A DNA stretch of 64,000 bases from an uncultured Actinomycetes bacterium (GTDB lineage Bacteria; Actinomycetota; Actinomycetes; Mycobacteriales; Jatrophihabitantaceae), in the NCBI GenBank assembly GCA_963708805.1, contig CAVPUA010000003.1, positions 750,455 through 814,454 of the forward strand, in the 5' to 3' direction. Shown in pieces: positions 4,654-50,645 of the stretch. The stretch's first letter is position 1. Each line of letters opens with the position of its first letter. The translations under genes and the position numbers were made by a program. The notes below the pieces were generated by a model. The model saw only the letters and a list, made by a program, of their open reading frames with translations. It did no database searches and was not told where the DNA came from.

Positions 4654-5350
4654 TCAGTCACCGAGACCGTTGCGCCAGGCCCAGGCGACCAGCCCCGGAC
4701 GGCCGTCGACATCGAGCTTGGACAGCACGTGGTTGAGGTGCGTCTTCACCGTGGCCTCGCTGACCACCAGCCGCCGGGCGATCTGCTGATTGGTCAGCCC
4801 CTCGGCGACCAGCCGGACGACCTCCACCTCGCGCCGGGTCAGCCCGTCGGGCTCGTCGCCGGACGGATCGTGGCCCAGCGAGCCCGGCGAGCCGGCGAGC
4901 GGAGCCCGGCGAGCCCGCTGAGCCCGCCGGGGATGCAGGGCCCTCCCGCAGGAGTTCGACCAACCGCCGCTGGACCGTCTCGTCGAGCACCGTCCGCCCG
5001 GCAGCCACCTCGCCGATCGCCGCGGCGAGCGCCTCGCTCGAGGCGTCCTTGGTGAGATACCCGGCCGCGCCCGCCCGCAGAGCAGGCAGGATCGCGTCGT
5101 CGTCGGCGAACGTCGTCAAGATCAGCACGCGCGTCTCGCCGCCGACGGCGGCCGCGACCTGTGCCCCGTCCAGGCCGGGCATCCGCAGGTCGCACAACAG
5201 CACGTCGGGTCGCAGCGACCGGGTCAGCCGCACGGCCTCGTCGCCGTCGACCGCGGCGCCGACGACCTCGAGGCCGTCATGCGCCGACAACAGCAGGACG
5301 AGCCCGTCGCGCACGACCGCCTGGTCGTCGGCGACGAGGACGCGGATCAC
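4654..5350 (-). pseudogene. NarL/LuxR-family response regulator, frame-disrupted within a tandem-repeat linker
   Basis: The receiver domain (VLVADDQ..., DLRMPGLDG) is in the 4658..6451 frame. The LuxR HTH (GLTRREVEVVRLVAEGLTNQQIARRLVVSEATVKTHL) is in another frame ending at 4654. The frame switch falls in a (GAGCCCGGC)n-like repeat at about 4860-4935. The GTG start overlaps the kinase stop (GTGA). Confidence 0.75.
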
Positions 5351-6486
5351 GGGGTCACCACCGGAAGCGTCAACTCGACGAGCCAGCCGCCGCCTTCCTG
5401 AGGACCGGTGCGCACCTGACCGCCGCAGTCGGCCACGCGCTTGGCCATCCCGGCCAGCCCCGTGCCGCTGCCCTGTCCGGTGACCGGCGAGTGGCCGGCG
5501 GCCGGCCCGAGGTCGCCGATCCGCACAACGAGGCCGTCCGTCCAGTCCAGCGCGACGACGACGGGGGAGCCGGGCGCGTACCGGGCCGCGTTGGTCAGCG
5601 ACTCCTGGACGGCGCGGTAGGCCGCCTCGCCGCCGGCGTCGGACACTGCGCCGGGCGTTCCCGACACCTCGAACCGGGCGTTGCCGGGGTAGCGCTCGAC
5701 CAGCGCCGGGATCGCGTCGACGCCGAGGCCGCCAGGATCGCGCAGTGCCCCGACCGCCGAGCGCGCCTCGATCAGCCCGTCCCGCGCGAGTTCGGCGGCG
5801 CGATCGAGCGGGGCCAGCACCTCGGGGCCGACGTCGGCCTTGGCGGCGACGGCCCGGATGGCCTGCAGCTGGAGCGACAAGCCAGCCAGGCTGTGGGCGA
5901 GCACGTCGTGCATGTCGCGCGCGATCCGGCCGCGCTCCTGGGCCGCGGCGGCCCGCGCCTCGGCCGCCCGGCTGGCCTCCAACTCGATCAGCAGCGCGCG
6001 CGCCCGGTCGCGTTCGACCACGAGCTGCTGGCGTTCGGCCACCCGTTGATAGAGCACAGGCACGGCGAGTCCGGCCAGCAGTCCGGCGATGCTGTGCGAC
6101 GCCCAGCCGACCGTCGCGCCGAACAGGATCGCTGCGCCGATCATCAGGGCCCGGCTCAGCTGCTTGGACGGAATCGAGGCCAGCCGGCCGACCGCAATGA
6201 CGAACGGGACGTAGCCCAGCCCGTTCGGTGCGGCCAGGATCGCGCCGAGACCCGCTGCGCAGACGACCACGATCGCGGTTGTGCGCAGGCGGTCGTCGTC
6301 GGCCGCGGTGCGCCACATCGCCACGGAGGCGATCACCATGAGCGCTCCGGCGGTGATCCGCTGCGCGACGCCCTCCGCCTGGTAGACGGTCGCGCCGTCG
6401 ACGGCCACCCACGCGATGATCGACCACCACCAAGGCAACGAGGTGAGCCATCGATCGAAGCCCGGCTGGGTCGTCTCAGTCGTCAT
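5347..6486 (-). CDS. sensor histidine kinase, HisKA_3 (NarX/DesK-like) with N-terminal multi-TM sensor
   Basis: H-box RIARDMHDVLAHSLAGL, HATPase N and G boxes, and 5-6 N-terminal TM helices. The stop overlaps the regulator start. Confidence 0.8.
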   Translation of the reverse strand: MTTETTQPGFDRWLTSLPWWWSIIAWVAVDGATVYQAEGVAQRITAGALMVIASVAMWRTAADDDRLRTTAIVVVCAAGLGAILAAPNGLGYVPFVIAVGRLASIPSKQLSRALMIGAAILFGATVGWASHSIAGLLAGLAVPVLYQRVAERQQLVVERDRARALLIELEASRAAEARAAAAQERGRIARDMHDVLAHSLAGLSLQLQAIRAVAAKADVGPEVLAPLDRAAELARDGLIEARSAVGALRDPGGLGVDAIPALVERYPGNARFEVSGTPGAVSDAGGEAAYRAVQESLTNAARYAPGSPVVVALDWTDGLVVRIGDLGPAAGHSPVTGQGSGTGLAGMAKRVADCGGQVRTGPQEGGGWLVELTLPVVTP

Positions 6487-8863
6487 CGTCGAGCACGCTG
6501 ACCGCGGTGATCCGGTGCAGCGGGTAGGACTGCAGCCGCGCCGTCGACTCCTCGTGCCCGCGAAGCACTCCGCCGGCCATCGAGATCGGGACGATCGTGT
6601 GCTGCGACGCCGTGCCGTCCGCGTCGACGAAGCCGAGCCAGATCCGGCTGCCGGCGCGAATCGCATCGCGCAGCAGGCCGAGCGTGGTGGCCGACGTGAC
6701 GCCCGGGATCTGCTGGCCTATCGGCTGCACGCGGCGGGCGATCTCGGCCAGCGAGTCACCGGAGCGGATCCGGCGGACCACCTCGGCCAGCTGGACGTCG
6801 CTGTCGACCGCCGGGCGGGGGCGCACGATGCGTGAGGTCGGCCGCGCGGGTGCCCGGGGCGAGTCGGCGTTGACGTTCACGACCGCGCCGTCCGGGTTCT
6901 CGGCGGCGGGCGCGTAGCCGGCCTCACGCAGCACGTCCAGTACCTGCGCGACCGGCGACGCGCTGACGACGACGGTCGGGGCGAGGCGGCGCAGGCCGAG
7001 TGACTCGGCGTTGCGATCGCTCATCACCCGATCGAGCAAGCTCTCGTCGTCGCAGCGTAGGTACGCCGACGCGACCCCGGTTCGGAGCACGCCGTGGCGG
7101 CGGCCGATGTCGTCGATCAGGTACGAGAGCGCCTGCGGGATCGGAGTGGTCGAGCGTGAGGCGAAGAAGTCGGCCAGCTCGGCGGCGCTCTGCCCGGCGT
7201 CCAGTCCGCGGCGGATCGTGGCCTCGGTGATCCGGAAGACGCTGGCGCCACCCGAGGACTCGAGGTTGGCGACCAGCTCGAGTTCGGCCGCGAGATCACT
7301 GGCCGGGGGGCCGGGCACGACCACGGTGAGATCGGGCTGGACCAGGAACGTGGTGACCGGTGCCGGCAGCGCGATCGTCAGGGCGTCCTCGGTGGCCTTC
7401 ACCGATCCGGCCAGCAGCGCGCGGGTGTAGCCGGTCAGGCCGCCCGCCGCGGTGAGCCCGAGTTGGTCCGCCTCGAGCAGGATCTGCTCGGCCAGCACGC
7501 GCTGCGCGTTGGCCCGGCGGGGCGACTCCCACGCCAGCCGGTCGAGGACGGCCTGGGCGTCGCGCGGTCGCTCGCCGGGCGTCATGGTGGCCAGGATGCC
7601 GAGCACGCTGCGCCGCAGTGAGGCGATCGTGCCGCGCTCGGCGTCCGGACTGAGCGCGTTGATCACCTTGTCGCGCTCGCCGCGCTGCCCCACGAGCCCG
7701 GGCTGCCGCGACATCCCGAGCCAGGCGCTGGCGAGCGGCACCCACCGTTCGGCCGGCTCGTGCCGACGCCACAGGTCGAACTCCGACGTCGGCAGGAACG
7801 CCGGGTCGATGCCGTTGGTCGAGGCCAGCAGTCCGGCCGCCACGGCGACCTCGACGAGCAGCGCCGCCGTGGGTTCGCTGACGTCCAGGACCCGCGCCGA
7901 GCGGCGCAGCTCGCGGATGCCGATGCCACCACCGCGCAGGACCGGCGCCGGATGGCGCGCCCAGTCCTCGCCCAGTGCGTCGACCAGCCGCAACGTCTCG
8001 AGCACCGCGGTGGTGCCGGCGCGGTCGGCCTCGACCGGTGTGCGCTCGATGGCGACGACCGCCGGCGCCTGGAAACTGACGCCACCCAGCGGGCGGTCGC
8101 CGCGAACCGCAAGCCCGACCTCGCGCGGCAGCTCGACCGTGCGCGTGTCGATCGGCACCAGCAGCCCGCGGGCCACCAGCCGGACCGCCGGCGAGGAATC
8201 GTCCGGCGCGGCGGGATTCTGCGCGTCGCGGATCAGCCCGGCCGGCGGACCCGCGGCGAGGCGGTCCAGCACGTCGCGCTCGTCCGGGTCGACCTCGGCC
8301 ACCAGCTGGCCGACGCGCGGCAGGAGTTCGGCCAGGACGGCGCGAGCCGATGTCGGCTGCGTCATCGGCGGTAGCCCGAACGCCCGCAGCATCGGCGCCA
8401 GGACCACATCGGAACTCTGGCGCAGCAGCAGGGCGGCCGGGCGTCCGAGGCCGGCGGGGTAGGCGCCGACCGCGTCGGAGACGCCGGTGACCAGGTGCAG
8501 CGCGTCGTCCTCGCCCCAGACCAGCGCGCGGCGACGCAACCCGTCCAGTTCGCCGCGCCGGTCGATCGGCGGTAGCAGCGCCGACGCGGCATCCAGGTCC
8601 ACCCGGTTGTCGGCGGCGGTGATCACCAACGCCTCGAGGGTGCGCAGTTGCCCGGCGTCCAGGGCGTCGACGGCCCGCAGCAGCGAGCTCCGGACGCTGA
8701 TGCGACTGGCCAGCGTCGCGAAATCGCCGGGCGCCGGCAGCGCGAGGTCGGGCCGCAGCCGGAGCAGCGTCGTCAGCTCGTCGTCCGAGCGTCGACGTAG
8801 CCAGTCGGCGAGCGAGGCCGGCCGTCCCGTCGTCGAGGCCGCGCGCGCCGCGGGTTGGGACAT
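6476..8863 (-). CDS. large conserved actinobacterial protein (Rv0862c-like), XPB-helicase-associated
   Basis: Intact 795-aa ORF. In related genomes this protein lies beside XPB. Function is not inferable from sequence alone. Confidence 0.55.
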   Translation of the reverse strand: MSQPAARAASTTGRPASLADWLRRRSDDELTTLLRLRPDLALPAPGDFATLASRISVRSSLLRAVDALDAGQLRTLEALVITAADNRVDLDAASALLPPIDRRGELDGLRRRALVWGEDDALHLVTGVSDAVGAYPAGLGRPAALLLRQSSDVVLAPMLRAFGLPPMTQPTSARAVLAELLPRVGQLVAEVDPDERDVLDRLAAGPPAGLIRDAQNPAAPDDSSPAVRLVARGLLVPIDTRTVELPREVGLAVRGDRPLGGVSFQAPAVVAIERTPVEADRAGTTAVLETLRLVDALGEDWARHPAPVLRGGGIGIRELRRSARVLDVSEPTAALLVEVAVAAGLLASTNGIDPAFLPTSEFDLWRRHEPAERWVPLASAWLGMSRQPGLVGQRGERDKVINALSPDAERGTIASLRRSVLGILATMTPGERPRDAQAVLDRLAWESPRRANAQRVLAEQILLEADQLGLTAAGGLTGYTRALLAGSVKATEDALTIALPAPVTTFLVQPDLTVVVPGPPASDLAAELELVANLESSGGASVFRITEATIRRGLDAGQSAAELADFFASRSTTPIPQALSYLIDDIGRRHGVLRTGVASAYLRCDDESLLDRVMSDRNAESLGLRRLAPTVVVSASPVAQVLDVLREAGYAPAAENPDGAVVNVNADSPRAPARPTSRIVRPRPAVDSDVQLAEVVRRIRSGDSLAEIARRVQPIGQQIPGVTSATTLGLLRDAIRAGSRIWLGFVDADGTASQHTIVPISMAGGVLRGHEESTARLQSYPLHRITAVSVLDDDD

Positions 8864-8870
8864 CAGGTGG

Positions 8871-9392
8871 CTAGTCGCCAGCGAGGTGCGGGCGGTCCTC
8901 GGGGCCGGGGTGTACGTAGCCCAATGACTCGACCGGCAGCGGGAACTCGATGTCGTCGCCGAACGGGGACATCGACCCGGCGTTCTCGGCCGCGAGTTCG
9001 GAGACGTGGAACTCCTCGGCGACGGGCCGGGTGCGGACGGGCGGAAGATACGGCTCGGGAAGGTTCGACTGGCCGGTCATCGAGATGCCCCTTCGGTGAT
9101 CTGTGCGAACGACCAGTGTCCCACGTTGCTCATAGCGGGCCCAGACGAGGCGTGACGCTAGTGCGCTTCCAGATCGCGCAGCGCCTGCGCGCTGGGCCTC
9201 GCGCCCGTGGTGGAGGGCGGCCCACACGGCGATCGCGAATCCGATCGGAGCGGCCAGGCAGGCCAGGTTCAGCCACAGCGGGGAGTTGTGGTGGCCGTCG
9301 AAGAACGGCAGCACGTCGATGACGATGAAGACCAAACCGACGACGAAGAGGATGAGTCCCGACTCGCACCATGCGCATCCGACGAGTATCAC
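8871..9392 (-). CDS. hypothetical membrane protein
   Basis: ORF frame 8871..9578. The start is placed at GTG (MILVGCAWCESGLILFVVGLVFIVIDVLPFF...). An internal ATG with a strong RBS (GAAGGGG) at 9080 could give an alternative 69-aa product. Confidence 0.35.
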   Translation of the reverse strand: MILVGCAWCESGLILFVVGLVFIVIDVLPFFDGHHNSPLWLNLACLAAPIGFAIAVWAALHHGREAQRAGAARSGSALASRLVWARYEQRGTLVVRTDHRRGISMTGQSNLPEPYLPPVRTRPVAEEFHVSELAAENAGSMSPFGDDIEFPLPVESLGYVHPGPEDRPHLAGD

Positions 9393-10503: not shown

Positions 10504-11322
10504 TCAACGCAGCTCGGGCGAGGACGGGGTGAGTCCTGCCTTGTAGGCGCGATCGAGCAGGGCCGAGGCCGCGGCGAATCCCTCGTCCCCCAGGTCGCGG
10601 GTGAACTCGTTGACGTAGAGCGCGATGTGCTGCGCCTGGACCTCGGGCGACATCTCGTCGGCGTGCGCGGCCACGTAGTCGCGGGAGTCGTCCGGGTGCG
10701 CCCAGGCGTGCTCGACCGAGGCGCGGATGGTCGCGGACAGCGCGTCGGCGTCGAGCGTGCGCCGGGCCAGGATCGCCCCGAGCGGGATCGGCAGTCCGGT
10801 GTCGGATTCCCACCACTCGCCGAGGTCGGCCAGCGCGTCCAGCCCGTAGGACGGGTAGGTGAAGCGCGCCTCGTGGATCACCAGCCCGGCGTCGTAACGG
10901 CCGTCACGGACAGCGGGCATGATCTCGGCGAACGGCACGACGTCGATGCGCGCGGGCCGCTGACCCTCGGACCAGAGCCGCATCAGCAGGTAGGCGGTCG
11001 AGCGCTCGCTCGGCACCGCCACGGTCATGCCGTCCAGTGAGTCGACGCCACCAGCGGTGAGGACGAGCGGGCCGCACCCGCGCCCGAGCGCACCGCCGCA
11101 GGGCAGCAGCCGGTAGTCCTCGAGCAGCCACGGCAGCGCCGCGTAGGACACCTTGGCGATGTCGTACGCGCCCCGCTCGGTGGCGCTGTTGGTGACGTCG
11201 ACGTCGGCGAACGTGACGTCGACGGCCGGCCCGTCGACCAGTCCGTGCGTCCAGGCGTGGAAGACGAACGTGTCGTTCGGGCAGGGCGAGAACGCAAGCG
11301 ACAGAGATCGGGTGTCAGTCAT
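10504..11322 (-). CDS. mqnD: menaquinone (futalosine pathway) MqnA/MqnD-family protein, likely 1,4-dihydroxy-6-naphthoate synthase
   Basis: N-terminal SLAFSPCPNDTFVFHA is characteristic of the MqnA/MqnD (VitK2_biosynth) family. Intact 272 aa. Its start overlaps the mqnB stop (ATGA). Confidence 0.7.
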   Translation of the reverse strand: MTDTRSLSLAFSPCPNDTFVFHAWTHGLVDGPAVDVTFADVDVTNSATERGAYDIAKVSYAALPWLLEDYRLLPCGGALGRGCGPLVLTAGGVDSLDGMTVAVPSERSTAYLLMRLWSEGQRPARIDVVPFAEIMPAVRDGRYDAGLVIHEARFTYPSYGLDALADLGEWWESDTGLPIPLGAILARRTLDADALSATIRASVEHAWAHPDDSRDYVAAHADEMSPEVQAQHIALYVNEFTRDLGDEGFAAASALLDRAYKAGLTPSSPELR

Positions 11323-11920
11323 CGACGTCCATTCAACGCCACGAAAGTCGAGCTCAGGGCAGCCAGCGCCTGCGGGATGCGCCAGGCGTCGCGATCGCGC
11401 GGGCCGACGATGTTGCTGATCGCGCGCACCTCGCCGAACTGGACACCGGCCCCGCTGGCGGCCGCGGCCACTCCCGCGCCCTCCATCGCCTCGGCCACGG
11501 CGTCCGGGAACCGTTCGAGCAGGGCCTGGGCGGTGGACGCCCGGCCGGTGACCGTGCTCACGGTCAGGATCGTCCCGAGGCGCAGCCCGAACGCGGTTCC
11601 CAGCGTCGGCTCGTAGGCCGAGCGCGGCCGAAGCCGAGGGCCTCGAGCGGGACGAATCGATCGCCGTCCGCGGCTCCGAGGTCGGCGAACACGATCGAGG
11701 ACGCGGCGACGACCGACCCGATCTCGACGCCGGGGAACCCGCCGCCGATGCCGGCGCTGAGGACCCGGTCGTACGAGCCGGTGGACAGGGCCCGGGCGGT
11801 GGACGCGGCGGACTCGGCCGGTCCGACGCCGCCGATGATCACGTCGGCGTCGTTGCCGAGCGATGGCCCGATCGCGTCGCGTTCGGCCGCGACCGCGGTG
11901 ACGACCAGCAGCCGGCTCAC
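11319..11920 (-). pseudogene. mqnB: futalosine hydrolase (MqnB, MTA/SAH-nucleosidase family), frame-disrupted
   Basis: The N-terminal part (VSRLLVVTAVAAERDAIG...GIGGG) is in frame 11564..12385. The C-terminal part (EAMEGAGVAAAA...) is in frame 11319..11561. The switch is at about 11600-11640. Confidence 0.65.
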
Positions 11921-12385
11921 GCGCGTAGACGGACGACCTTGGCGATCCAGGTCGCGGTGTCCTTGCCGCCCGACTCCTGGCGAACGATCAAGTAGTACTG
12001 AGCCGCTGGCGTAGGGCACGACGACCCGCGTGCTGTGCTCGTTGCTGATCGAGCCCGACGACGCGCCGTCGACCTGCAACTGGGTGAACTTCTGGTCGGT
12101 GTCCTTCGGTGGCGGCGACCACCGACCACGTCTCGGCCGCGACCTGGCGCGGGACGTCGACCAGCATGCTGGTGCCGGGCCTGGCCTTGATCGAGGACAC
12201 CGGGCTCGAGGTGTCGACGCGGCAGTGCTGGACGTCGAAGCAGTACGTCTGCGGGCGGACGACCGACGGTGGTGCTGCCGGACAGGAACGTGATGCTCGG
12301 GGGTCGGCTTGTCGCACGCGGTCAGGACGGTGGCGATCGCGGCGACGCCGAGGGCGGCTGCGGCCAGACGGACGGGGCGCGGCAT
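11917..12385 (-). pseudogene. lipoprotein, frame-disrupted (three frames)
   Basis: MPRPVRLAAAALGVAAIATVLTAC signal peptide and lipobox in one frame. The remainder is split across two other frames and ends AAQYYLIVRQESGGKDTATWIAKVVRLRA. The stop overlaps the mqnB GTG start. Confidence 0.4.
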
Positions 12386-12421: not shown

Positions 12422-14169
12422 CTAGAACGGTGAGGGGCCGCTGGCGAGGTTACCGGGCGTATCGGGCCACTGCGGCGCCGATGTGGCACGGCTCATCGCG
12501 CGGTTGCGCAGGACCAGGAAGACCGCGACCGCGGCCCCGACGGCCCCACTGATCCAGAAGCCGAGGCTGCCGTTGTCGCGCCGGCAGCAGGCAGCCGATC
12601 GCCGCGCCCAGGACCCAGGCCAGCTGCAGGAACGTCTCGGACCGGGCGAACGCGCTCGAGCGCAGTGTCTCGGCGACGTCGCGCTGGATCACCGCGTCGA
12701 GAGCGATCTTGCCCAGCGCGTTGGCGGCGGCGACGAGCAGCATGCCGACGACCGCGAAGTCGATGCTGAAGACCAGACCGGTCAGCAGGGCGGCAACGCC
12801 GGCGATGCCGATCGAGAGACTGATCACCCGTTCGGGCCGCGAGAGTTTGAGGCGGGCGCCGATGGCGGTGCCGAGGAAGTTGCCGACGCCGGCCGCGCCG
12901 ACCACCGCGCCCGAGGGCCACCGCCGCCTCGACATCCGTGCCGGGTGGACTCGACCCAGAACGCCATGAAGATCGTCAGGAACCCGGACATGAACCGCAG
13001 CGCCGATTCGCCCTGCAGCGAGATGATCACCGGCGGCAGGTAGCCGCGCTGCGCCCAGGCCATGATCCGCGAGAACGGTGGGACCTTCTCCTGGACGCGT
13101 GGCCGGGCGGGTTCCTCGGGATGTCGCTCGGCCGGCTGGGCCGAGTCGACCTGCGCCGGCAGCTTGATCGCGAAGAATCCGCACGCCGCGAACGCGATGG
13201 CGGTGACCCACAGACCGGCTGGCGTCCGAACCGGTGAGCTTGATGACGATGCCGACGAAGCCGCCGCCGATCAGCGCGGCGCCGAGCCCGAAGATCGACA
13301 GTCGCGCGTTGGCCTCGACGAGCGTCATCCCGGGAGGCACCAGCCGAGGACCGGCCGCACTGCGCACCACGCTGTAGGCCTTGGAGAAGACGAGCGACCC
13401 GAGCGCGCACGGATACAGCACCAGCAGGTCGGTCGAGTGCCCGGCCATGATGACCGCCAGGACGGCGCGCCCGGCGGCCGAGCCCGCCATCGCCCACCGC
13501 CGGCCGTGCTGCACCCGATCGAGCGCGGGGCCGATGAACGGGGCGACGACCGCGAACGGGGCCATCGTCACCAGCAGGTAGAGCAGGACATTGCCGCGTT
13601 GGGCGTGCGTCGACGCGCCGAAGAAGACCGTGCTGGCCAGCGCGACGGTGATCATGGCGTCGGTGCCGTAGGACAGCACCTGGTTCCAGATCAGCGCCGT
13701 GAGCCCCGATTCGTGCGCGCCGTTGGCCTTGCTCGCCGCGATCACCTTGCGGGTGACGAGCTTGGCCGCTTTGCCCGTGCCGACCGCGGTCGCCTTGGCC
13801 GCGTGGGTCACGCGATGGGTCTCGCCGGCGGCGGGGGCGGTCGGCGGGGCAGACGTCCCCGCGTGATAGGTCGGCGCACCGAAGCCGTCGTCGGGGCGGG
13901 CCGGCGGGTAGCGGGGCTGGGCGTACTGCGGGGGCGGTGCGTAGGTCCCGGCCGGAGGGTAGGCGGCCGGAGCGGTAGGCAGTCGGCGGGACGTAGGCGG
14001 GTGGGATGTAGGGCGGCGGCGCCGCGTACCCCGGCGGTGGGGGTGCCTGGTACGGCGGCGGGACAGGTGGAGGGGGCGGCGGGACGGCCGGCTGAGCGGT
14101 CTGATGGCTGGTGTGGCCGGACTTGGAGAACCGCCTGCGCGGCGGTCCCTCCCGCTCGTCTCGTGCCAT
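12422..14169 (-). pseudogene. MFS transporter with Pro-rich N-terminal extension, multiply frame-disrupted
   Basis: MFS TM segments lie in frame 12450..14681 and are interrupted by out-of-frame stretches. The true C-terminus (NGSLGFWISGAV...) and the Pro-rich N-terminus (MARDEREGPP...PPPPPPVPPPY) are in other frames. Confidence 0.65.
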
Positions 14170-23252: not shown

Positions 23253-24364
<1,112 letters not shown>

Positions 24365-31922: not shown

Positions 31923-31996
31923 AGCGGGTCGGCATATCGGCTCGTCCGGGCCGGTATCCTGGAGCCTCCGCGTTGGTTGGTGAAGGGATCAGGTCA

Positions 31997-34272
<2,276 letters not shown>

Positions 34273-41200: not shown

Positions 41201-41208
41201 GGGACGCG

Positions 41209-43191
41209 ATGACCGAGTTCACCACGCAGATCACCAAGCTGCTCGTCGCCAACCGCGGCGAGATCGCCTCGCGGGTCTTCCGCACGGCCCGGGCGATGGA
41301 CATCGCGACCGTCGCCGTGTTCTCCGACCCCGACGCGGGGCTGCCGTTCGTGACCGATGCCGACGAGGCGGTCCGGCTGCCGGGCTCGACGCCGGCCGAG
41401 ACCTACCTGCGCATCGACGCGATCCTGGCCGCCGCGGCGGCAACCGGCGCGGACGCGGTCCATCCCGGTTACGGCTTCCTGTCCGAGAACGCCGAGTTCG
41501 CCCGCGCCTGCGCCAAGGCCGGATTGATCTTCGTCGGCCCGACGCCGGAGGCGATCGAGGCGATGGGCTCGAAGATCGCCGCCAAGCGGCTGATGGCCGA
41601 GGCCGGCGTCCCCGTGCTCCCGGGGGCCGTCTTCGAGGACGAGCCCGACGCGGACGCGTTGGTCGAGGCGGCCGATGCCGTCGGGTACCCCGCGCTCGTC
41701 AAGGCGGCCTTCGGCGGTGGTGGTCGCGGGATGCGCATCGTCGCCGGTCCCGAAGCGATCGTCGAAGCGGTGGCCGGAGCCCGGCGCGAGGCCGCGTCGG
41801 CGTTCGGCAACGGCACGGTCTTCCTCGAACGGTTCGTCGAGTCCCCGCGGCACATCGAGGTGCAGATCATGGGCGACCAGCACGGGACGGTCGTCCACCT
41901 CTTCGAGCGTGAGTGCTCGATCCAGCGGCGCTACCAGAAGATCATCGAGGAGGCGCCGTCGCCGGCCGTCGATGATCGGCTCCGCGCCGAGCTGTGCCAG
42001 GCGGCCGTGGCGGCGGGCCGGGCCATCGGCTACGTCGGTGCCGGAACGGTCGAGTTCGTCCTCGACGCGTCGGGCCGGTTCTACTTCCTCGAGGTCAACA
42101 CCCGACTGCAGGTCGAGCACCCGGTCACCGAACTGATCACCGGGCTCGACCTGGTACGGCTGCAGCTCGACGTCGCCTCGGGCCGCCCGCTACCGCCCGA
42201 GGTCACCGGCGCGACGTTCTCGGGGCACGCGATCGAGGCGCGGCTCTACGCCGAGGACGTCCCCGGTGGCTACCTGCCGACCAGCGGCGACGTGATCACC
42301 TTCGACATCGAGGCCGCCGACGGCCTGCGCGTCGACGCCGGCTTCGCGTCGGGAACCCGGGTGAGCACGTTCTATGACTCGATGCTGGCCAAGGTCATCG
42401 GCTTCGGCCCCACCCGCGACGACGCCCGGCGCGTCCTGGCCGGGGCGCTGGACCGGGCTCGCCTGCACGGCGTGGTGACCAACCGCGACCTGCTCGTCGA
42501 GGTGCTGCGCGAGGCCGAGTTCGGTGAGGGACGCATCGACACCGGCTATCTCGAACGACATCCGTTCGCCGGTGGCGGCGACGCGAACGACGTTCACGTG
42601 CTGGCCGTCGCCCTGTCCGGCCAGGCCGAACGGCGACTGGTCGCGCCGGTGCTCTCGACGCTGCCCTCGGGGTGGCGCAACAACCCGAGCGGCCCGCAGC
42701 GCGCGAGCTACGACATCGCGGGCCGGACGGTCGAGGCGAGCTACCGGCTGATCGGCGACCGGGTCTCGGCCGCGGTCGACGGGCGTGAGCTCGAGGCGAC
42801 CGTACGGGCCGCGGCGGCCGATCGAGTCGATCTCGAGGTCGACGGGGTGCGCCGCGTGATCGAGGTGCGCCACGTGGGCAGCACGTTCTACGTCGACAGC
42901 TCGCTCGGGCACGACACCCTCGTCGAGGCCGAGCGCTTCCCCGACCCGTCGGCCGTGGCCCATGCCGGGTCGCTGCTGGCGCCGATGCCCGGGACCGTCG
43001 TCCGCGTCGACGTCGCGGTCGGCGACCACGTCGAGGCGGGTGCGGCTCTCCTGGCCATCGAGGCGATGAAGATGGAGCACTCGATCTTCGCGCCGACCCG
43101 GGGCATCGTCACCGAACTGCCGATCGCCGTCGGCGCCCAGGTCGACAGCGGCTCGGTGCTCGCGGTGCTCGAAGAGGAGGAGTCGCAATGA
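41209..43191 (+). CDS. acyl-CoA carboxylase alpha subunit (biotin carboxylase plus BCCP; AccA1-like)
   Basis: Intact 660 aa with the ATP-grasp biotin carboxylase and a C-terminal biotinyl domain (EAMKMEH). Confidence 0.85.
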   Translation: MTEFTTQITKLLVANRGEIASRVFRTARAMDIATVAVFSDPDAGLPFVTDADEAVRLPGSTPAETYLRIDAILAAAAATGADAVHPGYGFLSENAEFARACAKAGLIFVGPTPEAIEAMGSKIAAKRLMAEAGVPVLPGAVFEDEPDADALVEAADAVGYPALVKAAFGGGGRGMRIVAGPEAIVEAVAGARREAASAFGNGTVFLERFVESPRHIEVQIMGDQHGTVVHLFERECSIQRRYQKIIEEAPSPAVDDRLRAELCQAAVAAGRAIGYVGAGTVEFVLDASGRFYFLEVNTRLQVEHPVTELITGLDLVRLQLDVASGRPLPPEVTGATFSGHAIEARLYAEDVPGGYLPTSGDVITFDIEAADGLRVDAGFASGTRVSTFYDSMLAKVIGFGPTRDDARRVLAGALDRARLHGVVTNRDLLVEVLREAEFGEGRIDTGYLERHPFAGGGDANDVHVLAVALSGQAERRLVAPVLSTLPSGWRNNPSGPQRASYDIAGRTVEASYRLIGDRVSAAVDGRELEATVRAAAADRVDLEVDGVRRVIEVRHVGSTFYVDSSLGHDTLVEAERFPDPSAVAHAGSLLAPMPGTVVRVDVAVGDHVEAGAALLAIEAMKMEHSIFAPTRGIVTELPIAVGAQVDSGSVLAVLEEEESQ

Positions 43192-43952
43192 CCGAACCCG
43201 TCCAGTACGACGTGGTCAACGGGGTCGCGTGGTTGACGATCAACCGCCCTGAGGCCCGCAACGCGCTCAGCCTGGCCGTCCGGGACGGCCTGTTCACCGG
43301 GGTGCGCCGCTTCAACGCCGACGACGAGGCGAAGGTGCTGGTACTGACCGGGGCCGGAGACCGGGCCTTCTGTGCCGGTGGTGACCTGAAGGAGATGGCC
43401 GACACCACGTTGCGGGTGCCGCCGATCGACTTCGTCCCGCAGTTCGGCCGCAACATCGAGGTCGAGAAGCCGACGATCGCCGCTGTCAACGGGATCGCCT
43501 ACGGCGGCGGGTTCCTGCTCGCCCAGGACTGCGATCTGTGCGTGGCCGGCGAATCGGCCCGTTTCGCGATCAGCGAGGTCAAGGTCGGGCGGGGTTCGCC
43601 GTGGGCGGCTCCGCTCTCGTGGCTGGTGCCGCCCCGCATCGCCATGGAGATCCTGCTGACCGGAGACCCGCTCACCGCCCAGCGGGCGTACGAGGTCGGC
43701 CTCGTCAACCGGGTGGTGCCCGACGCCGATCTGCGCGACACCGTCCAGGCGCTGGCCGAACGGATCGCCACCAACGCGCCGTTGTCGGTCCGCGCCGCCA
43801 AGCGGACGGCCTACCTGTCGGCCCACTTCGAGCTGACCGACGCCTACGACGAGGCCGAACGGATCTGGGAGCCGGTGTATCTCAGCGCCGACGCCCAGGA
43901 GGGCCCGGCCGCGTTCCGCGACAAACGCACGCCCGTCTGGACGGGCCGCTGA
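43188..43952 (+). CDS. enoyl-CoA hydratase/isomerase family protein
   Basis: Intact 254 aa, crotonase fold (AAVNGIAYGGGFLLA). Overlaps the accA1 stop (ATGA). Confidence 0.8.
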   Translation: MTEPVQYDVVNGVAWLTINRPEARNALSLAVRDGLFTGVRRFNADDEAKVLVLTGAGDRAFCAGGDLKEMADTTLRVPPIDFVPQFGRNIEVEKPTIAAVNGIAYGGGFLLAQDCDLCVAGESARFAISEVKVGRGSPWAAPLSWLVPPRIAMEILLTGDPLTAQRAYEVGLVNRVVPDADLRDTVQALAERIATNAPLSVRAAKRTAYLSAHFELTDAYDEAERIWEPVYLSADAQEGPAAFRDKRTPVWTGR

Positions 43953-44750
43953 TGGCCGCCGACCTGACCGCGCTGATCGACGACCTGGTCGCCGAGAGCG
44001 TCGTGATCGACGAGATCATCACACCGCTGAGCCCCGAGCAGTGGACGCTGGCCCACGCCGGCCGAGGGCTGGACGATCGCCGACCAGGTCAGCCACCTCG
44101 CCTTCTTCGACGAGACCACGCTGCTGTCGCTGACCGACCCGGACCGCTTCCGCATCGAGGCCGACGAGCTGATCGCCGGCGGCATGGACTTTCCCGACCG
44201 CGTCGCCGCCCAGCACCACGACCGGCCTGGCGCCGAGTTGCTGGCCTGGTTCGTCCGCGCGCGCCGCGAACTGATCGAGGGCTACCGGGCCGTCGATCCG
44301 GACGTCCGGCTGCCCTGGTACGGCCCGGGCATGGGGCCGGCCTCGTCGGTCACCGCGCGGATCATGGAGACGTGGGCGCACGGCCAGGACATCGCCGATG
44401 CGCTCGGGGTGACCCGGCCGGTGACGAACCGGCTGCGGCACGTCGCTCACCTCGGGGTGCGCAGCCTGCCCTACAGCTACCGCGTGAACGGGCTGGACGT
44501 GCCGTCCGAGCCGATCCGCGTCGAGGTGGCCGCACCCGACGGCGACACCTGGACGTGGGGTCCGGACGCCGCCGCCGATCGAGTGACGGGGGACGCCCTG
44601 GAGTTCTGCCTCGTCGTCACCCAACGGCGCCACCTCAGCGACACCGCGCTCGCGGTCAGCGGTCCGGTGGCCGAGCAGTGGATCGGCATCGCCCAGGCCT
44701 TCGCCGGCGCGGCCGGTACGGGCCGCAAGCCGAGGGGAGACGCGGGATGA
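43952..44750 (+). pseudogene. MDMPI/DinB-superfamily protein (TIGR03084-like), frame-disrupted
   Basis: The N-terminus (MAADLTALIDDL...) and the remainder (ORF 44184..44750) are in different frames, with a shift at about 44060. Confidence 0.5.
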
Positions 44751-46155
44751 GATCGGTGCGGATCGGCAACTCCTCCGGTTTCTACGGCGACCGCAACGCG
44801 GCCTCGCTCGAGATGGTCGAGGGTGGCCCGATCGACTTCCTGACCGGCGACTATCTGGCCGAGCTGACGATGTTGATCTTGTGGAAGGCCAGACAGAAGG
44901 ATCCATCGGCCGGCTACGCGCGCTCGGTGCTCGGTCAGCTCGAACAGGTGCTGGGCACCTGCCTCGATCGCGGGATCAAGATCGTCAACAACGCGGGTGG
45001 ACTCAATCCGGCCGGCCTGGCCGAGGAGCTGACCGCCCTGGCCGAACGGCTGGGTCTGCACCCCAAGATCGCCTACCTGACCGGTGACGACCTGCTGCCC
45101 GACCTCGACGCGCTCATCGCCGCCGGCCACGACCTGGCCCATCTCGACACCGGGCGGCCCCTCGCCGAGGCGGGCGGCAAGCCGGTGACGGCCAACGCGT
45201 ATCTGGGCGCGTGGGGCATCGTCGACGCGCTGGGCTCGGGAGCCGACATCGTCGATCTGCCCGCGGGTCACCGACGCCTCGCTCGTCGTCGGGCCGGCCG
45301 CCTGGTGGCACGGCTGGGCCCGCGACGACTTCGACCAGCTGGCCGGCGCCGTGCTGGCCGGCCACGTGATCGAGTGCGGACCGCAGGCCACCGGCGGCAA
45401 CTACTCCTACATCGACGAGATCGTCGATCGTCGCTATCCGGGCTTCCCGATCGCCGAGGTGGCCGGCGACGGCAGCTTCGTGATCACCAAGCACGACGAA
45501 CACCGGCGGTCTGGTCTCGGTCGGCACCGTCACCGCTCAACTGATGTACGAGATCGCCGAGCCGGCGTACGCGAACCCGGACGTCATCGCCCACTTCGAC
45601 ACCGCCCAGCTCGATCAGGTCGGCCCGGACCGCGTGCGGTGCTCGGCCACCATGGGCAGCCCGCCACCGGCCACCACCAAGGTCGCGATCAACTTCGTCG
45701 GCGGCTACCGCAACACGATGACGCTCGTCCTGACCGGTCTCGACATCGAGAAGAAGGCGGCGTGGGCGACCGAGGAACTGTTCGGCATCCTCGGTGGGCG
45801 CGACCAGTTCGGCGAGGTCGACGTGCGGCTGATCCGCTTCGACCGTCCGGACGCGCCGACCAACGAGCAGGCCACCGCGCATCTGCGGATCACGGTCAAG
45901 GACGCCGATCCGCGCAAGGTCGGACGGCGGTTCTCGAACGCGACGATGGAGCTCGCGCTCGGCGGCTACGCCGGGTTCCACACCACGACGCCGCCGTGCG
46001 GCGAGAGCGCGTACGGCGTCTACTGGCCGGCCCTCGTCCCCGCCGACGCGCCCCGGCACACGGTCGTGCGGCCGGACGGCAGCACGAAGTTGATCGCGCC
46101 GACGCCGTCCGGTCCGGTGCGGTACTCGGCGATCGTCCGGCCCGATCGACTATGA
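44747..46155 (+). pseudogene. acyclic terpene utilisation AtuA-family protein (DUF1446), two frame disruptions
   Basis: MRSVRIGNSSGFYGDR N-terminus. Shifts at about 45260 and about 45510. ATGA overlap with the upstream gene. Confidence 0.65.
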
Positions 46156-46156
46156 C

Positions 46157-46504
46157 TTGACGATCGAGACACAGCGACTCCCGCTCGGGTCGGTCTGCGC
46201 CGCCCGGTCGGGCGACAAGGGCGGCAACGCCAACATCGGGGTCTGGACGCGAGATGCGGCCGGCTACGAGTGGTTGCGTACGTACCTCACCGTCGATCGC
46301 CTGCGCGAGCTGATCCCCGAGGCGGCCGATCGTCCAGTGCGTCGGTACGAACTGGCGAACCTGAACGCGCTCAACTTCGTCATCGTCGGGCTGCTCGGCG
46401 AGGGGGTCGCCGCCTCGACCCGCTCCGACCCGCAGGCCAAGGGGCTGGGCGAGTACCTGCGGTCGCGACTGGTCGACATCCCCGCGGTACTGGTCAGAGG
46501 CTGA
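46157..46504 (+). CDS. AtuA-associated small protein (DUF4387-like)
   Basis: 115-aa ORF with a TTG start immediately after atuA. Confidence 0.5.
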   Translation: MTIETQRLPLGSVCAARSGDKGGNANIGVWTRDAAGYEWLRTYLTVDRLRELIPEAADRPVRRYELANLNALNFVIVGLLGEGVAASTRSDPQAKGLGEYLRSRLVDIPAVLVRG

Positions 46505-46506
46505 AC

Positions 46507-47106
46507 GTGGTCACCCCGACCGAACCGGCGCGCCGGCGCGACCCCGAGCGCCGCCAGCGAATACTGACCGCCGCGGCCGATCTGGTCGCCGAGCGGGGCT
46601 ACCACGACGTCGGCATGATCGAGATCGGCGCCGCGGCGGGCATCACCGGCTCGGCGATCTACCGGCACTTCGGCGGCAAGTCGGCCGTCCTCGTCGCGAT
46701 GTTCGACCGGGTCATCGACAATCTCGGGCGCGAGGCCGAGGAGATCGTGGCGGCCGAGACCGAACCCCGCGAGACACTGCGCCGGCTCGTACAGACGCAG
46801 GTGCAGTTCGTCCTGGACGAACGGACGCTGGCGCAGGTCTATCACCACGAGATCGCCAACCTGCCCGAGGAAGACCGCCACCGGTTGCGACGCAAGCAGC
46901 GGCTCTACATCGAGGAGTGGGTGCACGTCCTCGCCGTGCTGCGCCCGGACGTCAACGACGGGCAGCTTGCGCGCGCTCGTGCACGCATCGATCGGCGCGA
47001 TCCAGTCGCAGTTGTTCTACGAGAGCGGCTTGCCCCGAGGGCAACTCGAGCGGCTCATGTCGTCGGTGGCCGAAGAGGCACTGTTCGTACCGGCGGACGA
47101 AGCGTG
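46507..47106 (+). pseudogene. TetR-family transcriptional regulator, frame-disrupted
   Basis: The HTH is in frame 46270..48093 (GTG start at 46507). The C-terminus (...ALFVPADEA*) is in another frame ending at 47106. Confidence 0.65.
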
Positions 47107-48094: not shown

Positions 48095-49188
48095 TGTTGT
48101 GACCTGACACGTTGTGTCAGGTTGCGAGCCGGCTGGTGGGTGGGTGTCCGCCGAGGGCGGAGTGGCCGCGTCGAGTGTTGTAGTAGTGCAGGAAGCGGTC
48201 AAGGCCTTGGCGGCGGAGGTTGTTGCTGGTCCAGGGTCGGGCGTAGGCCCATTCGGTGAGCAGGGTGCGGTTGAATCGTTCGGCTTTGCCGTTGGTCCAG
48301 GGGCAGCCGGGTTTGGTGAAGCGGCGTTTGATTTGCCAGGCCGAGCAGACCCAACCCCAGTCGGTGCCGTGGCGATAGACCAGGGCGTTGTCGGTCAGAA
48401 CACGGCGCACGCGGATGCCGTGGCTGGCGAACCAGGCCAGGGCGCGGTGCAGGAACCCGGCGCTGGTCGGGTCTTTCTCGTCGGCCAGCACTTCGGAGTA
48501 GGCCAGGCGGGTGTGGTCGTCGATGGCGGTGTGGACGTAGTCGTAGCCGATCTTCGTTTTCTTGTGCCGGTTCGTGACCGACACTGCGGCGTCACGGCCG
48601 TGCAGGCGCCACCCGCCGCCGGTGGGGATCTTGCCCAGCTTCTTGACGTCGACGTGGATCATCGCGCCGGGACTGGGATGCTCGTAGCGGTTTTCGCTGC
48701 GCCGGGAGGCCCGGACCCGCTCGCCGGTGATCGGGTCGATCGCCGCCAGATGCGGTACCTGGTGGCGGGCCAGGATCCGGCCGACCGTCGAGGCGTTCAG
48801 GCCGAGCTCGGCCGCGAGCACGACCGCTCCTCGCTTGCGTCGCCGCCGCGCGCTCAGAACACGCTGCTCGATCCGTTTTGGGGTACGAGCCGGCATCCGC
48901 CGCGGCCGCGAAGAACGATCGCGCAGCCCACCATCACCGCCCTCAGCGAAGCGACGAACCCACTTGTTCACGGTGGCGCGTGAGACGCCCAGTTGCTCGG
49001 CGACATGAGCTGGCGGCCAACCCGCCGCCACACGATCGACCATCAACCTGCGCGAGAACGGCGTCGTACGAGCGTTAGCGTGAGCCATAGAGGACCTCCT
49101 GCGGGTGAATGCCTAGACACATCCACTCCGTCAGGAGGTCCTCCCACGATCAAGCAGGCTCGCCGTAACAACCTCTCGGGTCACGACA
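48095..49188 (-). mobile_element. IS481-family insertion sequence, 1094 bp, with 6-bp target-site duplication TCTAGC
   Basis: Imperfect terminal inverted repeats (TGTGACC...GTTGT at both ends). An identical TCTAGC flanks both ends at 48089-48094 and 49189-49194. The internal GC content is lower than the surroundings. Confidence 0.8.
48117..49088 (-). CDS. IS481-family DDE transposase
   Basis: Intact 323 aa with an N-terminal HTH and an rve integrase core (the typical IS481 DDE triad region). Confidence 0.85.
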   Translation of the reverse strand: MAHANARTTPFSRRLMVDRVAAGWPPAHVAEQLGVSRATVNKWVRRFAEGGDGGLRDRSSRPRRMPARTPKRIEQRVLSARRRRKRGAVVLAAELGLNASTVGRILARHQVPHLAAIDPITGERVRASRRSENRYEHPSPGAMIHVDVKKLGKIPTGGGWRLHGRDAAVSVTNRHKKTKIGYDYVHTAIDDHTRLAYSEVLADEKDPTSAGFLHRALAWFASHGIRVRRVLTDNALVYRHGTDWGWVCSAWQIKRRFTKPGCPWTNGKAERFNRTLLTEWAYARPWTSNNLRRQGLDRFLHYYNTRRGHSALGGHPPTSRLAT

Positions 49189-49189: not shown

Positions 49190-49960
49190 CTAGCCCCGCC
49201 ACTTCGGGCCGCGTCCGAGCCGGATCGGTCCGGTCGCGGCGGCGAGTTCGATCGGCTGGCCGCGCTGGGTGATGCGCAGGACGCCCGCGACCCGCAGCGC
49301 TTCGGCGACCGAGCGCGACTGCTCCATCGCCTCGCGCCCCGACACTCCGAAGACGACGCGGGCGGCGTCACTCGGGCAGATCGTCGCCTCGGCCGGTCGG
49401 TGGCGCAGCAGAGCGCGCATGGCTGCCGCCAGGCGAGTTCGCCGCCCGTCGGCCGTCGACGGTTCCCACCACGGTTCGCCCCGTTCTCCGAGAGCGGTTG
49501 CCGCGTCGTCCACGCGCGTCGTCGCGCTGAGGTCCCCGTGGTCGATCGCGCGCCGCGCGCTGGCCAGCTCCGCGAGCAACTCCCCGCGCAGTTGCTTGGG
49601 GATGCCGGGATCGCCACCGGCGTCGGGGGGTTCGAGTGGGCCGACGTCCACGCACGGCTCCGCGGTGGCCCGGCTCGCATCGATCACCGGTCGGCGCAGT
49701 CGGCGACGCTCGTCGTCGTCGAGTCCGCCCCAGACGCCTTCGTAGCCGTTGGCGAGCGCGCTCTCCCGGCAGCGATCGATCACCGGGCAGCGCGCGCAGA
49801 TCGCCTTGGCGGCCGCGACCTGAGCCAGCGCCAGCCGACCCGACCCGACGGGGAAGAACAGCTCGGGGTCCTCGTCGAGACAAGCGGCCCGCCCACGCCA
49901 GTTGCCGCGCAGTTCGTCGACATCGCGAGAGCGGGCCCGAGTGCCCAGTGGTCGGGTCAT
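49190..49960 (-). CDS. WhiB-like (Wbl) Fe-S transcription factor fused to a C-terminal DUF3253-like domain
   Basis: Internal ATG MTRPLG. Wbl cysteine pattern (C...CxxC...C: CLDEDPELFFP, CARCPVIDRC) and GVWGG turn. The C-terminal roughly 90 aa are DUF3253-like (ICPSDAARVV...GPIRLGRGP). The TAG stop lies inside the IS481 target duplication. Confidence 0.55.
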   Translation of the reverse strand: MTRPLGTRARSRDVDELRGNWRGRAACLDEDPELFFPVGSGRLALAQVAAAKAICARCPVIDRCRESALANGYEGVWGGLDDDERRRLRRPVIDASRATAEPCVDVGPLEPPDAGGDPGIPKQLRGELLAELASARRAIDHGDLSATTRVDDAATALGERGEPWWEPSTADGRRTRLAAAMRALLRHRPAEATICPSDAARVVFGVSGREAMEQSRSVAEALRVAGVLRITQRGQPIELAAATGPIRLGRGPKWRG

Positions 49961-50645
49961 GGCTCGAGCGCCCGCGCCCGGAGACGACGGACTCCGACCA
50001 GGACTAGCACCGCCGACCCGACGCCCAGGAGCAGGCGGCGAGGCAGCGAGGTGAGCACGGCCGACCCGATTGCGATCGGGTGGCCGAACTCGACGTGGGG
50101 GCTGCCGGTGGCGATCCGCCCGCTGGTGGAGCCGCGACCGCGTCCGAGCTGAACGACGGTCCCGCGTGAGCCGGTGACCTCGACGGACAAGCCGGCGCCA
50201 TCGAGCGCGGTGGCGGCCTGGGTGATCACGGTCCGGGCCGACGCCCGGGACCCGACGGACCGCACCGCTCGCGCGGTCTCCGCCCACAGCGCCGACGCGT
50301 CGTCGGTGACGAGCCGCAGGTGGGTGCCGTCGGCGAGCAGGCGGGCATGGTGCGCGCCCACCTGGATGTCCAGGTCTGAGCTCACCTCGAACTCGCCGCC
50401 GGTGTCGCTCACCCTCGGGCTGCGCCTTCGGACGTGGTGATGCGGAGCGTGCCGTTGAGCTTCCAGGTGGCGCGGGGCGAGTCCGGGCCGGTTTCGCGCG
50501 GCACCTCGACCGACATGTCGACGAACTGGTAGTCGATGGCGGCGCCCTTTCCGGTCAGGTAGGCCCACATCTCCTTGCCAAAGTCGGCGAAGCTGCTGCT
50601 GTCGTGGTTCTTGACGTCGCGGGCACCGGTTGCGGTGTCGGTCAT
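49957..50645 (-). pseudogene. hypothetical protein with beta-strand-repeat (DUF4097-like) region and C-terminal TM segment, frame-disrupted
   Basis: Strong RBS GGAGAAGGAG before the ATG at 50645. N-terminal and C-terminal halves are in different frames, with a shift at about 50420. Confidence 0.35.

What the first reader, a model, noticed from the sequence alone, without database searches (positions are those of the whole stretch)
4654..50645. Dense, unevenly distributed single-base frame disruptions in conserved genes, including essential ones
About 25 genes need one or more frame switches to encode their full-length homologue. They include RR, mqnB, MFS, DUF3027, pabBC, marR, trmH, ubiA, SRPBCC, serC, GNAT, the SAM methyltransferase, murB, ALDH, gabT, flotillin, ask, asd, acs, fadD, atuA and tetR.

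- gabT alone needs at least six switches.
- One shift sits at a G6 homopolymer (about 21610).
- Interspersed genes are intact: XPB, the 795-aa partner, the Dam methyltransferase, accD1/accA1, NOS, and everything beyond 50.7 kb.

Loss of murB, asd, def-adjacent and serC functions would be lethal, so low-accuracy consensus (indel errors) over part of the window is the more likely explanation. An extreme reductive-decay genome is the alternative.
Basis: seen in the sequence. Interest (0 to 1): 0.6.

Follow-up and report, generated by a model that had tools for sequence, protein, structure and literature searches.

The report
Assembly indel errors, not pseudogenes
About 60 single-base frame breaks in 25 conserved genes between 4.9 and 47 kb are almost certainly consensus errors in a long-read metagenome assembly, not real gene decay, so the feature is an artefact worth flagging only for data quality.

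Summary
A frameshift-aware protein-to-DNA alignment against intact orthologues from syntenic relatives finds 61 frame disruptions in 25 genes between 4,867 and 46,960. A reference-free codon-usage Viterbi finds 57 there, 0 in 1-4.6 kb and 2 in 47.1-64 kb, which is the background rate.

The breaks are not biological decay:
- There are no in-frame stop codons in about 6,160 aligned codons of broken genes.
- Every event is a 1-base change: 50 extra bases and 11 missing.
- After frame correction, start and stop codons match the orthologues and Pfam coverage is full length (gabT 8-402/403 despite 9 breaks).
- The window's branch shows no extra amino-acid divergence in broken genes.
- Essential genes are hit (murB, asd, ask, serC).

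The events cluster in blocks and show no link to homopolymers or motifs. Inserted bases tend to sit beside a base that could be a synonymous alternative, which fits two strain alleles kept side by side by the consensus step.

Relatives are Nanopore-only Flye+Medaka MAGs, and one of them (L035) has its own frameshift patch. The disrupted stretch ends near 47 kb, not 50.6 kb. Verdict: assembly artefact, low interest.

The parts
4657..5350 (-). Response regulator (Response_reg + GerE). One extra base at about 4867-4903 separates the two domains into different frames.
9164..9378 (-). Conserved 71-aa ORF with two +1 events (9188, 9360).
   Evidence: (two references)
11318..11920 (-). mqnB (PNP_UDP_1). 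One -1 event at 11617-11626. A possible +1 at 11333 is seen with one reference only.
11935..12385 (-). DUF2771 gene with four +1 events (11998, 12107, 12261, 12301).
   Evidence: one reference, L002; two of the four also found
12428..14169 (-). MFS transporter with five +1 events (12578, 12912, 12931, 13220, 13974). A possible -1 at 12716 is seen with one reference only.
14220..14986 (+). DUF3027 gene with one missing base at 14610.
15982..17867 (+). pabBC fusion gene: +1 at 16297-16303, -1 at 16859-16862, +1 at 17302, +1 at 17582-17591.
   Evidence: (two references)
17886..18318 (+). MarR regulator with +1 at 18183.
18337..19112 (+). SpoU/TrmH methyltransferase with +1 at 18670 and 18911.
19114..19912 (-). 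UbiA prenyltransferase with +1 at 19651.
21464..21900 (+). SRPBCC/AHSA1 gene with one missing base beside the G6 run at 21608-21613. This is the only homopolymer-associated event.
23256..24364 (-). serC (Aminotran_5) with +1 at 23472 and 24331.
25020..25470 (+). GNAT acetyltransferase with +1 at 25140.
25492..26281 (-). Methyltransferase-like gene (weak Methyltransf_25 match) with +1 at 26158.
26333..27321 (+). murB with a net -1 event at 26549-26555. FAD_binding_4 and MurB_C are full length after correction.
27445..28879 (+). Aldehyde dehydrogenase with four +1 events (27583-27586, 27746-27752, 27795, 28516). After correction it is 95% identical to the L086 orthologue.
29160..30497 (+). gabT (Aminotran_3) with nine events: 29229, 29362, 29588 (+1); 29709, 29750 (-1); 29884 (+1); 30167 (-1); 30268, 30341 (+1). 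The corrected product covers Pfam positions 8-402 of 403. The start ATG and the stop sit at orthologous positions.
30770..33232 (+). Chimeric 820-aa ORF (public protein P0121): flotillin (Band_7 + Flot) read through into aspartate kinase because frame breaks near 31910-31965 remove the flotillin stop.
31914..33263 (+). ask (aspartate kinase) with -1 at 31965 and +1 at 33182.
33263..34266 (+). asd (aspartate-semialdehyde dehydrogenase) with +1 at 33857 and 33888.
35876..37718 (-). Acetyl-CoA synthetase-like gene (ACAS_N, AMP-binding, AMP-binding_C) with nine events: 36092, 36414, 36454, 36605 (+1); 36697 (-1); 37061, 37182, 37504, 37655 (+1).
   Evidence: (two references)
43952..44750 (+). MDMPI_N/DinB-like gene with +1 at 44051-44060.
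44753..46504 (+). atuA with +1 at 45254 and at 45495-45501, and a probable +1 at 46117-46147. Pfam coverage is 1-435 of 437 after correction.
   Evidence: (three references)
46339..47092 (+). TetR regulator with +1 at 46960. This fuses it in frame to the next gene and creates the 607-aa ORF 46270-48093. It is the last demonstrable event.
2238..3884 (-). XPB helicase, intact (97% identical to relatives). Part of the clean left flank.
5350..8863 (-). Histidine kinase plus the 795-aa helicase-associated protein, both intact. This is a 3.5-kb event-free block inside the interval.
39602..43949 (+). accD1, accA1 and an adjacent downstream gene that I did not scan against a family library (possibly an enoyl-CoA hydratase), all intact. 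This is a 4.3-kb event-free block.
48117..49088 (-). Intact IS481-family transposase. It lies about 1 kb to the right of the last frame break, where synteny with relatives also ends.

Best explanation
The frame breaks are errors in the consensus sequence of a long-read, most likely Nanopore-only, metagenome-assembled contig. They are not mutations in the organism. Over roughly 4.9-47 kb the consensus is locally poor, at about 1.4 detectable single-base indels per kb, while the flanks have normal quality. The genes are intact in the living cell.

What is shown: the indels have the signature of technical noise and none of the signatures of decay.

What is inferred: the cause of the local quality drop. 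My preferred mechanism, at about even odds within the artefact class, is that reads from two or more closely related strains were collapsed here. At some strain SNPs the polisher kept both alleles side by side, creating a one-base insertion. Blocks where only one strain contributes, or where the strains are identical, stay clean. Simple local low read depth is the other candidate mechanism.
For: 1. 61 frame breaks but no in-frame stop codon in about 6,160 aligned codons of broken genes.
2. All events are single-base: 50 extra and 11 missing, binomial p=4.6e-7. The reference-free model also calls mostly +1 shifts.
3. After frame correction the stop codon lies 0-2 codons from the orthologous stop in nearly all genes, and start codons are kept in most; gabT has 9 breaks, ATG at position 1 and the stop right after residue 443. 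Pfam domains become full length.
4. The divergence ratio of the window versus two relatives is the same for broken genes (mean about 0.91) and intact genes (mean about 0.86). ALDH has 4 breaks yet is 95% identical to its orthologue.
5. Single-copy core genes that are normally indispensable are hit: murB, asd, ask, serC, pabBC, mqnB.
6. The pattern is regional. There are 57 model-predicted events in 42.5 kb against 2 in the other 21.5 kb, which equals the false-positive rate measured on isolate genomes.
7. Provenance: exact products, including the chimeric 820-aa ORF, occur only on one unannotated 3.03-Mb ENA/NCBI contig. The closest relatives are Flye-named contigs of 'MFD' MAGs. That catalogue is Nanopore-only, made with Flye --meta plus one round of Medaka (PMC12313526).
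8. Loci from that catalogue show about twice the background frameshift rate. One of them, L035, has its own patch of 11 homology-supported breaks, including accA1, which is intact here.
9. For the tandem-allele idea: 65% of insertions have a synonymous alternative neighbour against 44% for simulated random insertions (p=0.005). The mean score penalty of the alternative is 0.65 against 1.88 (no simulation as low as observed in 5,000). Three stretches absent from, or non-syntenic with, relatives show no verified internal break: the flotillin body, the AbiEi/DUF559 ORF and everything right of the IS481.
Against: - No reads or depth information are available, so the artefact is inferred from sequence signatures only.
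- The error spectrum is not the textbook Nanopore one. There is no homopolymer association (mean longest run 2.30 against 2.34 at random sites) and no motif enrichment, and insertions outnumber deletions.
- That the window belongs to the MFD catalogue is an inference from its relatives and from the record type, not a lookup.
- The codon-position signal was a post-hoc test. An error process that prefers G+C-rich dinucleotide contexts could produce it too.
- Some core blocks are clean (2.2-9.1 kb and 37.9-44 kb). The strain-collapse idea needs an extra assumption to explain these.
Confidence: 0.9

Rival explanations
1. Genuine pseudogenes: this lineage, or this 42-kb segment (for example a redundant copy), is undergoing real decay and the indels exist in the DNA.
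For: The sequence as deposited has 25 disrupted conserved genes. No read data are available to exclude real mutations. An intact IS481 transposase sits at the right edge.
Against: - There are no nonsense codons and no multi-base deletions. From general knowledge of bacterial mutation spectra, base substitutions outnumber indels roughly ten to one and indels are deletion-biased. About 60 real indels should therefore come with many premature stops and with excess divergence. Neither is seen.
- Starts and stops are conserved.
- The flanks are at background, so this is not genome-wide decay.
- G+C stays near 70% throughout.
- No second copy of the segment exists in the window.
Confidence: 0.05
2. 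The same artefact class with a different cause: the stretch is supported by very few reads, or was left unpolished. The consensus then keeps raw-read-like random indels, and strain mixing plays no part.
For: - The block-wise distribution has sharp clean intervals.
- The catalogue's authors report lower coding density for lower-coverage MAGs (PMC12313526).
- Another MAG locus from the same catalogue, L035, has a patch with mixed insertions and deletions.
Against: - Random errors should not prefer positions with a synonymous alternative neighbour.
- The 82% insertion bias needs an additional assumption about the polisher.
Confidence: 0.35
3. Recoding or phase variation: programmed ribosomal frameshifting, transcriptional slippage, or simple-repeat contingency loci keep the genes functional despite the shifts.
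For: One event lies at a G6 run.
Against: - There are about 60 sites in 25 unrelated genes, up to nine per gene.
- No homopolymer or motif enrichment is seen.
- Orthologues in relatives are unshifted at the same positions.
Confidence: 0.01

Closest known systems
Gene fragmentation by indel errors in long-read (Nanopore/PacBio) assemblies
   Same: Single-base indels split or fuse otherwise intact conserved genes, and correcting the frame restores full-length proteins. Frameshifts and premature stops caused by long-read error are described in PMC12007338, found; I saw only its abstract. The likely source catalogue is Nanopore-only and was polished once with Medaka (PMC12313526).
   Different: These errors are not in homopolymers, they are mostly insertions, and they are confined to a roughly 42-kb stretch made of dense and clean blocks. 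This points to a local cause, such as collapsed strains or low depth, rather than the usual genome-wide homopolymer error.
Reductive genome decay with massive pseudogenisation (Mycobacterium leprae type)
   Same: Many conserved genes, including core metabolic ones, carry frame disruptions in an actinobacterial chromosome.
   Different: - No nonsense mutations and no deletions.
- No relaxed constraint on the window's branch.
- No drop in G+C.
- Intact neighbours and flanks.
- Essential cell-wall and amino-acid genes are hit.
Programmed frameshifting and slippage-based phase variation
   Same: A reading frame must be changed to make the full-length product.
   Different: There are no slippery or repeat sequences at the sites, there are many sites per gene, and the shifts are not conserved in orthologues.

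Membership tests
Long-read consensus indel artefact | Disruptions are small indels only, without accompanying nonsense substitutions | tested here: met
   61 single-base events and no in-frame stops in about 6,160 corrected codons
Long-read consensus indel artefact | Frame correction restores a full-length, well-conserved protein with orthologous start and stop | tested here: met
   gabT 8-402/403, AtuA 1-435/437, and stops within 0-2 codons of the orthologue
Long-read consensus indel artefact | The sequence comes from a long-read-only assembly | tested here: inconclusive
   The window's products occur on a single unannotated 3.03-Mb ENA/NCBI contig. Its relatives are Flye-named MFD Nanopore MAG contigs. 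The window's own record could not be retrieved.
Long-read consensus indel artefact | Errors concentrate in homopolymers | tested here: not met
   No enrichment. Only the G6 case at 21608-21613 fits. The artefact is therefore of an atypical kind.
Long-read consensus indel artefact | Reads or independent data do not support the indels | not testable with these tools
   No read data are available, and no independent assembly of the same species was found; the nearest relatives are 76-89% identical at protein level.
Genuine pseudogenes / reductive decay | A mixture of nonsense mutations, frameshifts and deletions | tested here: not met
   Only 1-base indels and no stops
Genuine pseudogenes / reductive decay | Relaxed selective constraint in the affected genes | tested here: not met
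   The branch-divergence ratio is equal in broken and intact genes
Genuine pseudogenes / reductive decay | Genome-wide distribution | tested here: not met
   Within the window, 21.5 kb of flank is at background rate. The rest of the genome was not available.
Programmed frameshift / phase variation | A slippery sequence or simple repeat at the shift site, with the shift conserved in orthologues | tested here: not met
   orthologues are unshifted

The most novel reading that the evidence does not exclude
The roughly 60 single-base insertions and deletions are physically present in the organism's DNA. That would mean a localised, insertion-biased frameshift mutagenesis, or very recent silencing, of a 42-kb chromosomal block that includes essential genes. 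The cell would then have to tolerate this through a second copy elsewhere in the genome or through population-level complementation.
Probability: 0.03. Interest if true: 0.8.

Novelty: not a real feature. Interest (0 to 1): 0.1.

Why it matters
It matters for data quality, not for biology.

- The errors are already in public protein collections as false products. Examples are the 820-aa flotillin::aspartate-kinase chimera (P0121) and, in this sequence, a TetR::luciferase-like 607-aa ORF.
- Taken at face value, they would make this organism look auxotrophic or cell-wall deficient, with murB, asd, ask, serC, pabBC and mqnB all broken.
- The spectrum is regional, insertion-biased, independent of homopolymers and linked to codon third positions. 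A whole-genome check such as coding density can miss it.
- If the tandem-allele mechanism is confirmed, it gives a simple sequence-only flag for collapsed-strain regions in long-read MAGs.

Tried and rejected
- The window's own contig could not be fetched. Exact-protein look-ups of the 795-aa product returned nothing, and cluster look-up gave no accession.
- Using the 820-aa ORF as an 'intact' anchor was a mistake. It is a frameshift chimera, though the search did yield close ask/asd relatives.
- Stop-to-stop ORFs of relatives made poor references. They produced antisense shadow ORFs and spurious upstream events. I replaced them with called genes and G+C-position filters.
- The metagenome scan for the control region returned non-syntenic decarboxylase loci. 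The control therefore rests on Pfam coverage and the codon-usage model.
- Tests for association with homopolymers, GATC (a Dam-family methylase gene is present) and all 4-mers were negative.
- The suspected frameshift at about 50.4-50.6 kb was rejected.
- Three model-only shifts inside the flotillin coiled-coil region (31283-31450) could not be verified. Both Pfam domains lie in one frame, and the region is low-complexity.
- No terminal inverted repeats were found for the IS481-like element, and the window has no tRNA genes.
- Event density does not track gene conservation. HK (62% identity) is clean, while ALDH (95%) has four events.
Full report
**What the window is.** It is a 70% G+C actinobacterial chromosome segment. 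Three products are present in the public protein collection only once each, on one unannotated 3,032,181-bp contig held by NCBI and ENA. They are the 795-aa helicase-associated protein, a Dam-family methylase and an 820-aa ORF. The 820-aa ORF carries flotillin domains followed by aspartate-kinase domains. So at least that frame disruption is in the deposited record and was not introduced later.

The nearest relatives are 76-90% identical at protein level. They sit on Flye-style 'contig_N' records of 'MFD...bin' MAGs. That catalogue was built from Nanopore reads only, with Flye --meta --nano-hq and one round of Medaka. Its authors note lower coding density in lower-coverage MAGs (PMC12313526). 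That the window itself belongs to this catalogue is my inference.

**Checking the observation.** I collected syntenic loci with intact genes:
- L001/L086 and L002 cover window positions 0-30 kb.
- L003/L004 cover 27-36 kb.
- 80 loci around accD1 cover 36-48 kb.

I wrote a protein-to-DNA aligner that allows frame changes and ran it with called orthologous proteins. After merging references, 61 events have homology support. They lie between 4,867 and 46,960, in 25 genes.

gabT has nine events and the acs-like gene has nine.

As an independent check, a codon-usage Viterbi with frameshift states was trained on nine intact genes of the window.
- It predicts 57 shifts in 4.6-47.1 kb, none in 1-4.6 kb and two in 47.1-64 kb.
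- On 337 kb of isolate genomes it.07 per 10 kb, and on 678 kb of short-read MAGs 1.36 per 10 kb.
- The interval is therefore about twelve-fold above background, and the flanks are at background.

Genes right of 47.1 kb show full-length Pfam matches. A suspected shift near 50.4 kb turned out to be two separate genes. The affected stretch therefore ends near 47 kb, not 50.6 kb. Inside the interval the events are clustered: variance/mean is 2.2-3.0 with p<=5e-5, and the clean blocks are 4,867-9,188 and 37,847-44,051.

**Real decay or artefact.** Five sequence-only tests all point to artefact.
1. The corrected reading frames of broken genes, about 6,160 codons, contain no stop codon. From general knowledge, substitutions greatly outnumber indels in bacterial mutation spectra, so real decay deep enough for 61 indels should have produced many stops.
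2. Every event is a single base: 50 extra and 11 missing, p=4.6e-7. Natural bacterial indel spectra are deletion-biased and include longer deletions (general knowledge).
3. With frames corrected, the stop codon falls within 0-2 codons of the orthologous stop in nearly all genes, and most start codons are kept. Pfam domains become full length. gabT goes from 30-45-residue fragments to 8-402/403 at 437 bits, and AtuA reaches 1-435/437.
4. The window's divergence from two relatives, scaled by the relatives' divergence from each other, is the same for broken genes (about 0.91) and intact genes (about 0.86). ALDH has four breaks and is 95% identical to its orthologue.
5. The genes hit include murB, asd, ask, serC, pabBC and mqnB. 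These are normally indispensable in a free-living actinobacterium (general knowledge).

G+C stays near 70% throughout, and there is no sign of a second copy in the window.

**What kind of artefact.** The events are not classic homopolymer errors. The longest run near events averages 2.30 bases against 2.34 at random sites. No 4-mer is enriched, and neither is GATC, the presumptive target of the neighbouring Dam-family methylase.

Nucleotide alignments show single bases inserted in ordinary sequence. In several cases the inserted base and its neighbour look like two alternative alleles of one codon position. Examples are CG[T][C] at 27586, GG[G][C] at 27795, and GA[C][G] at 28516, where one relative has Asp and another has Glu.

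I tested this against simulated random insertions in the same local contexts.
- 65% of observed insertions have a synonymous alternative neighbour, against 44% expected (p=0.005).
- The mean score cost of the alternative is 0.65 against 1.88; none of 5,000 simulations was as low as the observed value.

This fits a consensus step that kept both alleles of strain-level SNPs side by side where reads of closely related strains were collapsed. Three stretches that are absent from relatives at their positions, or non-syntenic with them, have no verified internal break: the flotillin body, the AbiEi/DUF559 ORF and everything right of the IS481-family transposase at 48117-49088. Only one strain would contribute reads to such stretches.

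The test was post hoc. A context-biased error process could mimic the result, and some core blocks are clean too. I therefore treat this mechanism as suggestive only. Local low depth or an unpolished stretch remains a serious alternative.

The wider data set gives some support. Loci from the same Nanopore catalogue show 2.38 model-predicted shifts per 10 kb, about twice background. From those counts I estimate that roughly three quarters of the excess is +1. One relative, L035, has 11 homology-supported breaks within 6 kb, including accA1, which is intact in this window.

**Comparison with known things.** This works like the well-known fragmentation of genes by long-read indel errors (PMC12007338, found; abstract only). 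It differs in being regional, insertion-biased and independent of homopolymers. It is not a member of the reductive-decay class, because the tests for nonsense mutations, deletions, relaxed constraint and wide distribution were not met. It is not recoding or phase variation either.

**Verdict.** The feature is not biological. Confidence in the artefact explanation is about 0.9. Real mutations remain possible at a few per cent, because no reads could be examined. Interest is low, apart from the quality-control lesson.

Noticed in passing
window 62328-62560 (+): Four tandem mini-ORFs encode MSNREG or (V/M)NREG. Each ends in AACCGCGAAGGCTGA and each is preceded by a GGAG-like ribosome-binding site. 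They lie in the A+T-richer spacer between the GGDEF gene (60930-62243, -) and an MFS gene (62703-63980, -). Their function is unknown.
   Followed up: partly
window 49193-50554 (-): Complete WhiB (PF02467) and DUF3253 (PF11625) domains lie in one uninterrupted frame about 86 codons apart. This is either a natural fusion or a lost stop codon.
   Followed up: partly
window 34378-35259 (+): An intact ORF combines AbiEi antitoxin domains with a DUF559/REase_MTES_1575 nuclease-like domain. It lies between asd and def, where the close relatives L003 and L004 have a different 389-aa gene.
   Followed up: no
window 30770-31920 (+): A flotillin (Band_7 + Flot) gene lies between gabT and ask. It is absent from that position in relatives L003 and L004.
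   Followed up: no
window 48117-49088 (-) and 52062-52520 (+): An intact IS481-family transposase and a small ORF with a resolvase-type HTH_7 domain are present. Synteny with all fetched relatives ends at about 48.1 kb, so the right 16 kb looks like accessory DNA.
   Followed up: partly
window 57320-60045 (-): A bacterial nitric-oxide synthase oxygenase gene (full NO_synthase domain) lies directly downstream of a globin / FAD-binding / NAD-binding flavohaemoprotein-like gene.
   Followed up: no
whole window: GATC occurs 714 times in 64 kb. That is roughly four times what base composition predicts (my own estimate), in a genome that encodes a Dam-family (MethyltransfD12) methylase at 19962-21005.
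   Followed up: no
L035 11700-17300: Another MAG locus (MFD05521.bin.1.66, contig_38046) carries 11 homology-supported frame breaks in accA1 and neighbouring genes, plus one in-frame stop. This is a second patch of poor consensus in the same catalogue.
   Followed up: partly
P0368 and P0420 (public proteins matching window 50416-50646, wrong frame): These 82-aa 'proteins' are rich in Arg, His, Asp and Gln. They appear to be wrong-frame shadow ORFs called in other high-G+C assemblies, and they form a spurious protein family in the collection.
   Followed up: partly
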